Below are positions 8,462 to 11,020 of a stretch of 14,166 nt of DNA, piece by piece. Each line of letters begins with the position of its first letter. Position 1 is the first letter of the stretch. Source of the stretch: a virus. A model generated the notes under the pieces. The model searched no databases, was not told where the DNA came from, and saw only the letters and a list, made by a program, of their open reading frames with translations. Both the position numbers and the translations under genes were made by a program. The stretch is from UHGV virus genome UHGV-1657835; one strand, written 5' to 3'.

Positions 8462-9163
8462 TTATTCTGATTCTTGCTCAAAAAACGAGCTAATAAGGGG
8501 AAGCCAATCCTCTGACACTTCGCGAGGTCGCGGTTTGCCGTGGAAAAAGATTATTCGGCAGTCTTTTGGTAATGCCCCATTCCCCCTGGAGTAACGCGCG
8601 CTCGCATATTTCGAACCAGGTTCCACAACATCGGCCTTGTAACTTACAAACCATCCCGGATACAGATCCTGAAATGCTGGTGTATCATCACCCATAACCT
8701 TCCGCAAAAACCCCTGATCACCCCAGCATTCAGTAGTAACACAACGAGCAACCCAACCTTCCGGATCTTGCCAGAATGCACTCCAGATATGCGCTTTTAC
8801 ACTATTTGGTATCCACAGGGCACCGCTACCACGATATTGTGGATGGTAAAAATCCCTAAGCATGGTGAAGCTGGTTGGTGGATTCTCAAGGATTGGGCGT
8901 ATATCACCGGCAATAACCGTGTCCAAATCCAGATAGAACAGATCATCGGTTATATCCGGTCGGAACAACTCGATTTTCGCCCACCAGCCACGGCACTTTT
9001 GCCACTGGTTGATCAATGGGATAACTTTGACGCCAGGTACATGTAAACGCTTCAGGTCTGTCAGGCAAATAATTTCATAGCCTTTTGGCAGTTGATTAAC
9101 CAGCCACTGCACATCGGAAGCGTTATAGTCACCACCAGAGCGAAGAACTAAAGCAATCTTCAT
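8462..9163 (-). CDS. GT-A fold glycosyltransferase, GT8-like (LgtC/glycogenin-type)
   Basis: N-terminal [12 protein letters not shown] resembles the GT8 xxDxNY motif, and [18 protein letters not shown] resembles the LgtC DxD region (VLYLDIDVLV...). ATG 9163 overlaps the phosphatase stop as ATGA. Confidence 0.8.
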
Positions 9164-9837
9164 GCTGCACCATCACCTTTCACTTTCATCAATGTCAGGT
9201 TTCCGCAAAATACGGCACCAGTATCGATATAATGCTGATTCCAGAATGTCTTCGGGCTTTTCACCAGAGTGTGACCAAAGATAAAACGATCTGCGCCCGA
9301 AATTTCGCCACCAATATCATCCATCGAATCACTGATACGCTCGCGCGCCCAGACAACGTTGAAAAGCGGCACCTCCTTACCGAATTGATATTCATTATCC
9401 GGATAGTCGGCATGGGCTATAACGATAGTTTCTTGCCCGGTGTTCAACTCAATGATATAGGGCAGTCGTCTTACCAACTCCACCAGCGCCCTGGCTAATA
9501 TTTCCTGATCAGCGTCCAGCATGAAGAACCATTGACCGCCATTCATTAGCCAGTTATTCACGTTGCCATCAGGACTTAACGCATCAATCATCAGCCGCTC
9601 ATGGTTGCCCATAACCGCTCTGAACCATGGCATCTGCAATAGCTCCAGGCATTTAACATTTTCGGTGCCGCGATCGATAAGGTCGCCGACCGATATCAGT
9701 AAATCCTGCGCAGGGTCAAAATCCACACGATGGAGTTCGGACATCAGTCTGGTGTAGCAACCATGCAGATCACCAACAACCCAGATATTCCTGTATTTGG
9801 TACCGTCGATACGGTGATAAATTGTGGGTGCCATCAT
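9160..9837 (-). CDS. Ser/Thr protein phosphatase, calcineurin-like metallophosphoesterase (lambda NinI / E. coli PrpA-like)
   Basis: Conserved GDLHG, GDLIDRG and GNHE motifs and end-to-end similarity to lambda PPase as I recall it. The ORF track starts it at 9852; ATG 9837 gives an N-terminus of lambda-like length and an ATGA overlap with the upstream stop, so I prefer it. Confidence 0.9.
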
Positions 9838-10460
9838 GTATTCTTCAGCCATTCTTTAAGAGTCATCTGCGGAATACCTCCCATTTTCCCGCATGAAACA
9901 ACGTCAATCTGTTCACGCGCAGACTGGAATAACAAAGGCAGGTGACTTAGATTTTTTGGCGTGCCGCCGGAGTGAACGCGTGGTTCTTGCGTAGCGTCAA
10001 CGCCCACCAGGGCTACATGTTTGAATCCGATATGGAAAGCCAGGTTCAGAGCACCATATGCACTATTGCCACTGGCAATTTCATTCTCATCTTCACAAAG
10101 GCCGAAATGTGCGGACCAGCGCCACGCCCACCACTCGGGAGAATTCGTATTTTTTGGCTCGATGCCGCGTTCAGCCACACGACGGAAGCACAGAACGCCG
10201 TCTCTGACTTCACGTTCTTTAACATCGGGTAGTGCCATGCAATAACAAACACCACGGCGACGGCGGCCACGACCAACGCGCCGCATATTGTCTGGGGATG
10301 GATCAAGGGTGAAAAAATAAGAAGCGCGGTTAAGCCAGTCGATAGCCCCATTGACCGCTATAATCGGCACTCCGCGCGGCGCAACAAAGTTTGCGGCGCT
10401 TGGGCCACTGCCGACGATAATAACGCGATCACTGCCTCTAAATTTATTCTTGGGAAACAT
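9834..10460 (-). CDS. MAF/MptE (DUF115)/GT42-sialyltransferase-like Rossmann-fold protein, paralog 2
   Basis: VIIVGSGPS...IIAVNGA...[25 protein letters not shown] follows the pattern of Campylobacter Cst-II (VIIAGNGPSL...ITSGVYMCAVAIALGYKEIYLSGID). ATG 10460 with AGGAG RBS. The first 34 codons overlap the upstream paralog. Confidence 0.8.
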
Positions 10461-11020
10461 TGAATTGCACTGCTCCTACTTGCATTCAAAATATGTAAAT
10501 CTGCGTGTTTTTTGCGGGTATCCAAGAACTGCTGTTGCCATTTTGAAATAGACACCTGCGTTGGATTCCGTAGGGCTTGAGGGTGCGCACCATGCCAATG
10601 AAGGCCGTTTTGCAGAGAACAGTCATAGCCGACTAATACCACTACTTCAGCCCCTGATTCAGCAGCCAGACTGATAGCCTGCGCGCCGCTATTTACCCCT
10701 TCCGCCGGTCCACAATATCGCCTGTACTCCAACGAAAATGATTTCGCCGCCGCCAGGTTGGCTGTCACTTTGCGGAATCTCCCTCCCGGTATGGTGGAGC
10801 CGTATTGCTTCCACCATGACAAATCACCGGCGTATAAGGCATAAATGTCATCGAACATCTGCCAGGAATTGTTAACCGCGATGATTGAACAGCCAGTTTT
10901 TTCTATAGCAGCACAGTCCTCACGAGTGAGTGACGGACCGCTACCGACACAAAAAACAGTCCTAGTCGCCCTGGGTGGTATGTTCATTCTCAGCTGCAAA
11001 TTCAGCCTCCAGGCGAGCAT
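10358..11020 (-). CDS. MAF/MptE (DUF115)/GT42-sialyltransferase-like Rossmann-fold protein, paralog 1
   Basis: VFCVGSGPSL...IIAVNNS...GVNSGAQAISLAAESGAEVVVLVGYD has the same architecture as the downstream paralog. The longest ORF starts at ATG 11020; an internal ATG at 10987 gives an N-terminus matching the paralog in length and may be the true start. Confidence 0.8.
   Translation of the reverse strand: MLAWRLNLQLRMNIPPRATRTVFCVGSGPSLTREDCAAIEKTGCSIIAVNNSWQMFDDIYALYAGDLSWWKQYGSTIPGGRFRKVTANLAAAKSFSLEYRRYCGPAEGVNSGAQAISLAAESGAEVVVLVGYDCSLQNGLHWHGAHPQALRNPTQVSISKWQQQFLDTRKKHADLHILNASRSSAIQCFPRINLEAVIALLSSAVAQAPQTLLRRAECRL

What the first reader, a model, noticed from the sequence alone, without database searches (positions are those of the whole stretch)
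8462..11020. Glycosyltransferase-like block: GT8-like enzyme, Ser/Thr phosphatase and two tandem MAF/MptE/GT42-like paralogs in one coupled operon
Four consecutive coupled genes encode a GT-A fold GT8-like transferase (DxD motif), a lambda-type Ser/Thr phosphatase and two paralogous Rossmann proteins with the GxGPS...AVN...VGxD pattern shared by CMP-sugar sialyltransferases (Cst-II), flagellin-glycosylating Maf proteins and MptE pyrophosphokinases. Clustering three sugar or nucleotide-transferase-like enzymes with a phosphatase suggests a dedicated modification pathway. Possible targets are host LPS (receptor modification or exclusion), a phage or host protein, or nucleotides and DNA. I do not recognise this combination as a described system.
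Basis: partly seen in the sequence, partly recalled or inferred. Interest (0 to 1): 0.65.

Follow-up and report, generated by a model that had tools for sequence, protein, structure and literature searches.

The report
Phage P1 three-enzyme glycosylation cassette
The block is phage P1's genes pmgO, pmgP, ppp and pmgQ: three of them form a sugar-transferase cassette shared by many phages of Gram-negative bacteria and probably decorate a phage or cell-surface molecule, while the phosphatase is an unrelated insertion.

Summary
Four overlapping minus-strand genes at 8462-11020 are P1's pmgO-pmgP-ppp-pmgQ (about 98% nucleotide identity to P1).

- **PmgQ** is a GT8-like GT-A glycosyltransferase with an invariant DLD motif.
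- **Ppp** is an intact lambda-type phosphatase.

Comparative genomics changes the interpretation. PmgO, PmgP and PmgQ travel together in unrelated phages and prophages of Proteobacteria, Bacteroidota and Gemmatimonadota. Natural fusions exist: O-P, P-Q, Q-P and Q-P-methyltransferase. Some cassettes also carry methyltransferase, acetyltransferase or a further GT-A gene. Ppp sits inside the cassette only in the P1/P7 sub-lineage. More distant P1-like plasmids lack it, and phage D6 has ppp without the cassette.

The cassette often lies just after the HK97-type capsid gene or the lysis genes. My best guess is late cytoplasmic glycosylation of a virion protein (about 0.4). LPS core modification is the main rival.

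The genes are already annotated and dispensable for plaque formation. I found no functional study.

The parts
10358..11020 (-). pmgO: single-domain Maf/MptE/GT42-fold transferase-like protein (220 aa as annotated; the true start is probably near codon 12-20)
9834..10460 (-). pmgP: distant paralog of pmgO and the most conserved cassette member
   Evidence: Matches phrog_2111 at 7e-132. hhalign against the PmgO family gives 98%, E 2e-13. Listed homologs are at least 50% identical across Enterobacterales, Pseudomonas, Ochrobactrum and Alloalcanivorax. The family has 642 representatives at E<=1e-3. Similarity to WaaZ is faint: hhalign 48% and TIGR04437/PF27901 hits on homologs.
9160..9852 (-). ppp: lambda-type Ser/Thr protein phosphatase, a lineage-specific insertion between pmgP and pmgQ
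   Evidence: Scores Metallophos 58.9 bits. NCBIfam PRK11439 gives 5.5e-82 at 275 bits, below the 326-bit cut-off. The NinI-like PHROG matches at 9e-112. It is absent from every non-P1 cassette and from distant P1-like plasmids. It is present alone in phage D6.
8462..9163 (-). pmgQ: minimal GT8-like GT-A glycosyltransferase (DLD79-81; FHGKPRP207-213)
   Evidence: A family profile search of the PDB hits GT8 enzymes at E 1.2e-7. The AF2 model has pLDDT 95.2. Foldseek top hits are dominated by GT8 enzymes: Gat1, glycogenin, LgtC and GlyE. It matches phrog_1962 'glycosyltransferase' at 3.5e-127.
10962..11117 (-). pmgN: 51-aa acidic ORF that heads the operon and overlaps the annotated pmgO start by 59 nt; membership in the cassette is doubtful
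   Evidence: Annotated in P1 and matches phrog_2350. A homolog was seen only in the close P1-like locus L135 among the eleven loci checked by tblastn.
11181..11209 (-). Sigma-70-like promoter (GCGACA-17-TAAAAT), coinciding with P1's predicted PpmgN
   Evidence: Found by the consensus scan. The P1 annotation places PpmgN and C1 operator Oppp/Op83 here.
8395..8460 (.). Two C1-repressor operators (Op86a/b) with PpmgR; they mark the downstream end of the block, before pmgR
   Evidence: Operator-consensus matches lie at 8395-8411 (+) and 8444-8460 (-). There are 4 matches in the window against 0.1 expected by chance. The P1 annotation agrees.
12099..12117 (-). P1 late promoter LPpmgL, upstream of pmgL-pmgM; a possible source of late read-through into the block
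   Evidence: Mapped from the P1 annotation, L001 10100-10118 plus 1999. No strong terminator was predicted between it and pmgQ. Read-through is inferred, not shown.

Best explanation
The block is phage P1's pmgO-pmgP-ppp-pmgQ.

**What the cassette is.** PmgO, PmgP and PmgQ are an old, mobile, phage-restricted three-enzyme glycosylation cassette. It has two Maf/GT42-fold transferases, which probably act as a pair, and one retaining GT8-type hexosyltransferase. All three are soluble cytoplasmic proteins and must use host-made nucleotide sugars.

**What I think it does (inferred).** The cassette is expressed with the late or head genes and builds a short glycan on a phage virion protein, most likely of the head, before or during assembly.

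**Likely donors (inferred).** PmgQ would use a UDP-hexose. PmgO and PmgP would use a CMP-activated ulosonic acid. In E. coli K-12 that can only be CMP-Kdo, by elimination.

**Ppp.** It is a lambda-NinI-type phosphatase inserted into the cassette in the P1/P7 sub-lineage and is not part of the pathway.

**Confidence by step.**
- Shown: the folds, the paralogy, the co-occurrence, the fusions, and the independence of ppp (about 0.85).
- Inferred: transferase rather than kinase chemistry, a protein or virion acceptor, and the donor identities.
For: **Folds.**
- PmgQ is GT8-like.
- PmgO and PmgP are paralogous.

**One pathway.**
- O, P and Q are adjacent in a C. rodentium lambdoid prophage, Pseudomonas, Ochrobactrum, Zhongshania, Methylophilaceae, Brevundimonas, Sinomicrobium and Longimicrobiales loci.
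- Q accompanies P in 23 of 25 diverse viral contigs. The two exceptions end at a contig edge.
- Natural fusions exist: O-P in P0051, P-Q in P0301 and P0369, Q-P in P0380, and Q-P-methyltransferase in P0353.
- Accessory sugar-tailoring genes sit inside some cassettes: a SAM methyltransferase, a hexapeptide acetyltransferase and an extra GT-A.

**Late or head association.**
- The cassette lies directly after, or interleaved with, the HK97-type capsid, connector and head-closure genes in L086/L087, L111, L098, L100, L116, L117, L120, L125, L128, L130 and L133.
- It lies between the lysis cassette and the terminase in L002, L084, L112, L119, L124 and L126.
- In P1-like elements it sits next to pmgR, which is needed for head completion (PMC9024508).

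**Nearest solved relatives.** The closest structures are protein glycosylators: Maf, Gat1, glycogenin and GlyE.

**Other consistent facts.**
- None of the proteins has a transmembrane segment.
- All homologs found came from phages or prophages of Gram-negative hosts.
- The P1 deletions plaque normally. Dispensability fits a decorative modification.
Against: - No glycan has been reported on P1 virions. The LC-MS/MS proteome and two cryo-EM studies do not mention one. None of them looked for one, so this is weak negative evidence.
- The context is not always structural. L105 and L113 place the cassette next to ribonucleotide reductase and exonuclease genes.
- In P1 the operon has a sigma-70 promoter with a C1 operator. 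Expression may therefore be early as well as late.
- Capsid proteins next to the cassette show no C-terminal extension beyond the Pfam capsid domain.
- PmgP is at least 50% identical across phages whose structural proteins are unrelated. That is hard to reconcile with a phage-specific protein acceptor, unless PmgP acts on a sugar rather than on the protein.
- GT8 plus GT42 is also the enzyme pairing used to extend Haemophilus and Neisseria lipo-oligosaccharide (my own knowledge). This favours the LPS rival.
Confidence: 0.4

Rival explanations
1. LPS or LOS core modification. The three enzymes act at the cytoplasmic face of the inner membrane on lipid A-core. They add Kdo-type and alpha-hexose residues, changing or truncating the LPS core that P1 uses as its receptor. 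The benefit would be superinfection exclusion, or protection of progeny from adsorbing to cell debris.
For: - GT8 is the family of LPS and LOS alpha-glycosyltransferases. LgtC is among the Foldseek hits.
- PmgP-family members have faint WaaZ (Kdo III transferase) similarity: TIGR04437 at E 2.9e-4 on P0051 and 2 of 40 members, PF27901, and hhalign 48% against 0.2% for the WaaS control.
- PmgO and PmgP are basic, with pI 9.3-9.5, like WaaZ at 9.25.
- All hosts are LPS-bearing.
- The position after Rz is a classic moron site.
- GT8 and GT42 act together on Haemophilus LOS (my own knowledge).
Against: - In many prophages the genes are embedded between capsid and head-completion genes, with no room for a promoter of their own. 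Expression would then be late only, which is too late to replace the LPS already in the outer membrane (inference).
- In P1 the predicted promoter carries a C1 operator, so it should be off in lysogens.
- No homolog was found in a chromosomal waa, LOS or capsule locus.
- Core structures differ greatly among the host phyla, yet PmgP is highly conserved.
- The WaaZ similarity is far below the curated cut-off (20 against 200 bits).
Confidence: 0.22
2. Glycosylation of a host cytoplasmic protein or a small molecule, as a takeover or counter-defence function. This would resemble toxin-type GT-A glycosyltransferases acting on host factors.
For: - The enzymes are soluble and have no membrane segments.
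- The nearest structures glycosylate proteins.
- PmgP is highly conserved across unrelated phages, which fits a universal host acceptor.
- Some cassettes lie in early or nucleotide-metabolism regions.
- The P1 promoter is C1-controlled.
Against: - There are no PADLOC matches, and I found no described anti-defence link.
- Most contexts are late or structural.
- Accessory methyl- and acetyltransferases point to an elaborated glycan rather than a single inactivating sugar.
- No candidate acceptor was identified.
Confidence: 0.12
3. PmgO and PmgP are not glycosyltransferases. They are MptE- or thiamin-pyrophosphokinase-like diphosphokinases that activate a hydroxyl-bearing substrate, such as a sugar or cofactor, and PmgQ uses the product.
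For: - The only Pfam family hit is MptE-like.
- PmgO has an invariant Cys/His cluster (C134, H141, H143, and H146 nearly invariant) that has no counterpart in the PmgP family consensus.
Against: - A PmgO profile picks out Cst-II at both shared motifs.
- No folate, thiamin or other cofactor genes accompany the cassette.
- The accessory genes are typical of glycan tailoring.
Confidence: 0.1
4. One reading: all four genes, including the Ser/Thr phosphatase, form one modification pathway, possibly acting on DNA or nucleotides.
For: The four ORFs overlap and share one transcription unit in P1.
Against: - Ppp is missing from every cassette outside the P1/P7 sub-lineage, including syntenic distant P1-like plasmids.
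- Ppp occurs without the cassette in D6.
- No base-hydroxymethylation or nucleotide-sugar synthesis genes travel with the cassette.
- P1 DNA is canonical apart from methylation (established knowledge).
Confidence: 0.04

Closest known systems
Maf (motility-associated factor) flagellin glycosyltransferases, e.g. Magnetospirillum Maf, PDB 5mu5
   Different: - Maf proteins are about 600 aa, with extra N- and C-terminal domains. PmgO and PmgP are bare domains of about 200 aa.
- No pseudaminic or legionaminic acid synthesis genes lie nearby.
- E. coli K-12 makes neither sugar.
- The window proteins score below the Pfam cut-off.
GT42 sialyltransferases Cst-I and Cst-II (Campylobacter)
   Different: - Sequence similarity is not significant (E about 0.14).
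- An equivalent of the catalytic His188 could not be assigned.
- The host lacks CMP-Neu5Ac.
- The database label is a fold-level transfer, not evidence of sialyltransferase activity.
GT8 retaining glycosyltransferases (glycogenin, Gat1, GlyE, LgtC)
   Same: PmgQ has the GT-A fold, an invariant DxD motif, and a C-terminal H-G-K-P-x-P motif that aligns to the GT8 H..G..KPW motif.
   Different: - PmgQ has no hit to the Pfam Glyco_transf_8 model.
- It is shorter, at 233 aa, with no membrane-association tail or acceptor domain.
- Identity to solved GT8 structures is 12-17%.
Mycobacteriophage virion glycosylation (Freeman et al. 2023; recalled from my own knowledge and seen only as citations)
   Same: Phage-encoded, dispensable cytoplasmic glycosyltransferases, linked to structural genes, that decorate capsid and tail proteins.
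   Different: - The hosts are different (Actinobacteria).
- As far as I recall the enzyme families also differ, with no MptE-like pair.
- Glycosylation of P1 or any cassette-bearing virion has not been shown.
WaaZ (Kdo III transferase, GT73) of the E. coli K-12 LPS core
   Same: There are faint hits at the sequence and profile level. Both are basic soluble proteins. WaaZ uses CMP-Kdo, the only CMP-sugar available in K-12.
   Different: Scores are far below the family cut-off (20 against 200 bits). hhalign reaches only 48% for PmgP and 31% for PmgO, over the C-terminal half.
Lambda Ser/Thr phosphatase (NinI), PrpA/PrpB
   Same: Ppp has all the PPP-family metal-binding motifs. The P1 annotation gives 64% identity to lambda PP.
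   Different: Nothing notable. It is an ordinary member that happens to be inserted inside the cassette.

Membership tests
GT8 glycosyltransferases (CAZy GT8 / Pfam PF01501) | GT-A Rossmann-like fold closest to known GT8 structures | tested here: met
   The AF2 model has pLDDT 95.2. Foldseek top hits are dominated by GT8 enzymes (Gat1, glycogenin, LgtC, GlyE), at E 6e-9 to 1e-6.
GT8 glycosyltransferases (CAZy GT8 / Pfam PF01501) | DxD metal and nucleotide-sugar binding motif | tested here: met
   D79-L80-D81 is invariant in 54 homologs. It aligns to the DxD of Gat1 and glycogenin.
GT8 glycosyltransferases (CAZy GT8 / Pfam PF01501) | C-terminal His of the H..G..KPW motif (third metal ligand) | tested here: met
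   F-H208-G-K-P211-R-P aligns with glycogenin VHFLGQTKPW and Gat1 HYSSNPKPW. H208, G209 and P213 are nearly invariant and P211 is invariant.
GT8 glycosyltransferases (CAZy GT8 / Pfam PF01501) | Score above the curated Pfam family threshold | tested here: not met
   PmgQ and three homologs have no Pfam hit at E<=0.1. Only a custom family profile reaches GT8 structures. PmgQ is therefore GT8-like, a divergent sister family.
GT8 glycosyltransferases (CAZy GT8 / Pfam PF01501) | Retaining transfer from a UDP-hexose | not testable with these tools
   This needs an enzyme assay.
MptE-like / Maf superfamily (Pfam PF01973) | Score above the Pfam gathering threshold (34.6 bits) | tested here: not met
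   PmgO scores 23.4 bits and PmgP 20.9 bits. Homologs P0051 (44.6) and P0337 (44.1) pass. The families belong to the superfamily, but the window proteins are sub-threshold.
MptE-like / Maf superfamily (Pfam PF01973) | Shared three-dimensional fold with the Maf central domain and MptE | tested here: met
Maf flagellin glycosyltransferases | Multi-domain architecture with substrate-binding N- and C-terminal domains, and neighbouring nonulosonic-acid synthesis genes | tested here: not met
   PmgO and PmgP are single domains of about 200 aa. No pse, leg or neu genes occur in any locus examined.
GT42 sialyltransferases (Cst-I/II, Lic3A) | Significant sequence similarity to GT42 members | tested here: not met
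   The best profile E-value is 0.14, restricted to two motifs. The PmgP profile finds nothing in the PDB.
GT42 sialyltransferases (Cst-I/II, Lic3A) | Catalytic base (Cst-II His188) and CMP-Neu5Ac donor | tested here: inconclusive
   Invariant His residues exist (PmgO H141 and H143; PmgP H173), but they lie 8-18 residues after the GxD motif, against about 34 in Cst-II by my recollection. No residue-level structural alignment was available. The donor cannot be tested here.
WaaZ Kdo III transferase (TIGR04437 / PF27901, GT73) | Score above the curated cut-off (200 bits) | tested here: not met
   The window proteins have no hit. P0051 scores 20.3 bits, and 2 of 40 PmgP members hit at E>=0.006. hhalign gives 48% for PmgP and 31% for PmgO.
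PPP-family (lambda-type) Ser/Thr phosphatases | GDxHG, GDxxDRG and GNHE motifs, and Metallophos above threshold | tested here: met
   GDLHG27-31, GDLIDRG56-62 and GNHE82-85 are present. Metallophos scores 58.9 bits against a 21.5-bit cut-off.
Phage virion-glycosylation systems | Glycan covalently attached to capsid or tail proteins, dependent on the phage glycosyltransferases | not testable with these tools
   Only gene context supports this. Published P1 virion studies report no glycan.

The most novel reading that the evidence does not exclude
P1 and a wide range of phages of Gram-negative bacteria glycosylate their own virion proteins with a dedicated PmgO/PmgP/PmgQ cassette. The cassette would use CMP-Kdo as a donor, because it is the only CMP-sugar available in hosts such as E. 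coli K-12. This would be the first virion-glycosylation system described in Gram-negative phages and the first protein-linked Kdo, found in one of the oldest model phages.
Probability: 0.2. Interest if true: 0.8.

Novelty: new variant of a known kind. Interest (0 to 1): 0.5.

Why it matters
P1 has been a workhorse of E. coli genetics for seventy years. These four genes still carry the placeholder name 'putative morphogenetic function' or fold-transferred labels such as 'sialyltransferase'.

Three of them form a conserved, fusion-linked glycosylation cassette found in phages of several bacterial phyla, often wedged between capsid and head-completion genes. That turns an anonymous region into a specific hypothesis that is cheap to test, because the deletion mutants already exist.

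If the target is the virion, this would extend phage self-glycosylation, so far shown in mycobacteriophages, to Gram-negative phages. That bears on immune recognition of therapeutic phages and on P1-based delivery vectors. If the target is LPS, it would be a new receptor-editing mechanism.

The analysis also corrects the natural assumption that the embedded phosphatase belongs to the pathway.

Tried and rejected
- **First hhalign run.** The O-versus-P comparison was contaminated by the O-P fusion protein in the alignment. I repeated it without that protein.
- **Modelling the natural O-P fusion.** I planned to use a combined alignment to get both domains from one job. MAFFT aligned the PmgO homologs onto the PmgP domain, so I dropped this. 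PmgP was therefore not modelled.
- **First viral-contig scan.** It returned only P1 copies. I repeated it with a distant first sequence.
- **WaaZ membership.** I considered and rejected it, because scores are far below the cut-off.
- **Defence-system membership.** Rejected: no PADLOC hits.
- **DNA modification.** Rejected on context and on established knowledge of P1 DNA.
- **Capsid C-terminal extension.** I looked for a mycobacteriophage-style acceptor tail on capsids next to the cassette and found none.
- **Literature.** Searches for pmgO/P/Q, 'norphogenetic', DUF115 plus phage, WaaZ plus prophage, and virion glycosylation found no functional study. The P1 genome paper (PMC523184) is not held.
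Full report
**What is in the window.** The window is a P1-like phage-plasmid. Bases 8000-11800 are 97.8% identical to phage P1 (AF234172 78812-82612) and up to 98.7% identical to Escherichia plasmids. In all, 799 plasmid records match. The four minus-strand ORFs inside 8462-11020 are P1's pmgO (10358-11020), pmgP (9834-10460), ppp (9160-9852) and pmgQ (8462-9163). 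They overlap by 103, 19 and 4 nt.

The P1 annotation places a small ORF, pmgN, a predicted sigma-70 promoter (PpmgN) and a C1 operator (Op83) just upstream. A late promoter, LPpmgL, lies further upstream, and two C1 operators lie immediately downstream, before pmgR. I recovered the promoter-like site at 11181-11209 and the downstream operators at 8395-8411 and 8444-8460. No convincing terminator interrupts the block.

**Checking the fold claims: PmgQ.** PmgQ has no Pfam hit. A profile of 54 homologs matches GT8 enzymes in the PDB: Gat1 at E 1.2e-7, GlyE at 8e-5 and glycogenin at 5e-4. Its AlphaFold model has pLDDT 95.2. Foldseek top hits are dominated by GT8 enzymes, including Gat1, glycogenin, LgtC and GlyE. 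D79-L80-D81 is invariant, and a C-terminal FHGKPRP motif aligns with the GT8 H..G..KPW motif.

**Checking the fold claims: Ppp.** Ppp is a complete lambda-type phosphatase. It scores Metallophos 58.9 bits, matches the NinI-like PHROG at 9e-112, and has all three PPP motifs. The P1 annotation gives 64% identity to lambda PP.

**Checking the fold claims: PmgO and PmgP.**
- Both carry GSGPS, IAVN and VGxD motifs.
- Pairwise BLAST is marginal (E 0.003). Family profiles align at 98% probability, E 2e-13, over 163 columns.
- Each has its own orthologs in many phyla, so the duplication is ancient.
- The PmgO model (pLDDT 85.6) gave ambiguous Foldseek results.

**The three transferases are one unit.** Homologs of all three occur side by side in unrelated phages:
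- a phage with a P22/SU10-type portal (L002);
- the lambdoid C. rodentium prophage phiNP (L084);
- HK97-like prophages of Pseudomonas, Ochrobactrum, Zhongshania and Methylophilaceae;
- Brevundimonas, Sinomicrobium (Bacteroidota) and Longimicrobiales contigs.

In 25 diverse IMG/VR contigs found with a PmgP profile, PmgQ accompanies PmgP in 23. The two exceptions end at the contig edge. PmgO is present in 20.

Natural fusions link every pair:
- PmgO-PmgP (P0051);
- PmgP-PmgQ (P0301, P0369);
- PmgQ-PmgP (P0380);
- PmgQ-PmgP-methyltransferase (P0353);
- methyltransferase-PmgP (P0388).

Some cassettes also hold a SAM methyltransferase, a hexapeptide acetyltransferase, or a further small GT-A protein. 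This is the signature of a glycan-building pathway.

**The phosphatase is not part of it.**
- Ppp sits between PmgP and PmgQ only in P1/P7 and their near relatives (L088-L090, L127, L135-L139).
- More distant P1-like phage-plasmids keep the order PmgM-PmgO-PmgP-PmgQ-PmgR-PmgS without it (L122, L129, L131, L132, L140).
- No non-P1 cassette has it.
- Phage D6 has ppp among lambdoid early genes and has no PmgP match.

**Where the cassette sits.**
- In at least eleven loci from several lineages it lies directly after the HK97-type major capsid gene, or is interleaved with connector and head-closure genes. These are L086/87, L111, L098, L100, L116, L117, L120, L125, L128, L130 and L133.
- In six loci it lies between the lysis cassette and the terminase: L002, L084, L112, L119, L124 and L126.
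- In P1-like elements it abuts pmgR. [quoted passage not shown]
- Two loci, L105 and L113, place it beside ribonucleotide reductase genes instead, so the association is strong but not universal.
- All homologs found were in phage or prophage contexts of Gram-negative hosts. None was in a chromosomal LPS or capsule locus.

**Most likely mechanism.** The proteins are soluble, with no transmembrane segments, and no nucleotide-sugar synthesis genes travel with them. They must therefore use host donors in the cytoplasm.

I infer that PmgQ transfers a hexose from a UDP-sugar, as GT8 chemistry predicts. I infer that PmgO and PmgP transfer a CMP-activated ulosonic acid, as Maf/GT42-type chemistry predicts. 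In E. coli K-12 the only such donor is CMP-Kdo. Faint similarity of the PmgP family to the Kdo transferase WaaZ is consistent with this but far below threshold.

Three things point to a virion protein as the best-supported acceptor, at about 0.4:
- the late and head-gene context;
- the nearest solved relatives, which are protein glycosylators (Maf, Gat1, glycogenin, GlyE);
- the precedent of dispensable virion glycosylation in mycobacteriophages (my own knowledge).

**Rivals.**
- *LPS core modification (about 0.22).* It is favoured by the GT8 and GT42 precedent in lipo-oligosaccharide synthesis and by P1's LPS receptor. It is disfavoured by late-only expression in head operons and by C1 repression in P1 lysogens.
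- *A host-protein or small-molecule target (about 0.12).*
- *Pyrophosphokinase chemistry for PmgO and PmgP (about 0.10).*

**Evidence against the best explanation.** No P1 virion study reports glycans, although none searched for them. Capsids next to the cassette show no obvious acceptor tail.

**What is known and what is new.** The genes have been annotated since the P1 genome paper. RefSeq and PHROGs already call them 'alpha-2,3-sialyltransferase' and 'glycosyltransferase'. Deletion and CRISPRi studies show that pmgO, pmgP, ppp and pmgQ are dispensable for plaque formation (PMC10695390 and PMC9024508). I found no paper on their function.

What this analysis adds:
- recognition of a conserved, fusion-linked three-enzyme cassette;
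- its frequent placement inside head-gene clusters;
- the exclusion of ppp from the pathway.

I rate it a new variant of a known kind (phage-encoded glycosylation systems), of moderate interest, with an inexpensive decisive experiment available.

Noticed in passing
window 10985-11020 (5' end of pmgO) and 10962-11117 (pmgN): The annotated pmgO start is probably too far upstream. Homologs begin around residue 12-20, residues 1-16 have pLDDT below 50, and the annotated start overlaps pmgN by 59 nt. An internal Met12 (MNIPPR...) is a likelier start.
   Followed up: partly
window 10962-11117 (pmgN): This is a 51-aa, very acidic ORF (pI 4.2) at the head of the operon. CRISPRi knockdown scored it essential although its deletion is viable (PMC10695390). 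The discrepancy is unexplained, because every downstream gene is dispensable. I saw no homolog next to non-P1 cassettes.
   Followed up: partly
window 10580-10622 (PmgO residues 134-146): PmgO has an invariant or nearly invariant Cys/His cluster (C134, H141, H143, H146) in the loop after the GYD motif. AlphaFold models that loop with low confidence (pLDDT 55-75). It may be a metal site. The PmgP family consensus has no counterpart.
   Followed up: no
window 6319-6825 (pap) and 11184-11762 (pmgM): Neighbouring 'putative morphogenetic' or 'acid phosphatase' genes look like nucleic-acid enzymes. Pap matches the HAD phosphatase domain of polynucleotide kinase-phosphatase (PF25109, 8.6e-12). PmgM is a VRR-NUC nuclease or Holliday-junction-resolvase-like protein. 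The 'pmg' names are placeholders.
   Followed up: no
window 6303-6319, 8395-8411, 8444-8460, 12068-12084: There are four matches to the P1 C1-repressor operator consensus, against 0.1 expected by chance. They correspond to P1's Op88, Op86b, Op86a and Op82. The annotated Op83 upstream of pmgN differs from the consensus by about 5 bases and was not recovered at 3 mismatches or fewer.
   Followed up: partly
L107 4258-5091, L110 6188-7378, L108 6617-7672: In alphaproteobacterial prophages the gene just upstream of the PmgO homolog encodes a collagen-repeat or carbohydrate-binding-module protein. L107's also has a portal-like C-terminus. L108 carries a hexapeptide acetyltransferase between PmgO and PmgQ. 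Collagen-like proteins are classic O-glycosylation substrates, so this could be a candidate acceptor.
   Followed up: partly
L130 5139-7940: The cassette is split by a head-tail connector gene: capsid, PmgO, connector, PmgP, methyltransferase, PmgQ. The glycosylation genes are interleaved with head-completion genes rather than inserted as a single block.
   Followed up: no
phage records OP688485 (EP_H11), MH719082 (IME392), AP018399 (XacN1), MN047793, OP883945, OP752703: PmgP homologs (30-47% identity) also occur in E. coli phages of about 111-116 kb and in jumbo Xanthomonas and Stenotrophomonas phages. In EP_H11 the PmgP match falls in an unannotated gap (locus 6001-6603) between two 'hypothetical protein' genes.
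   Followed up: partly
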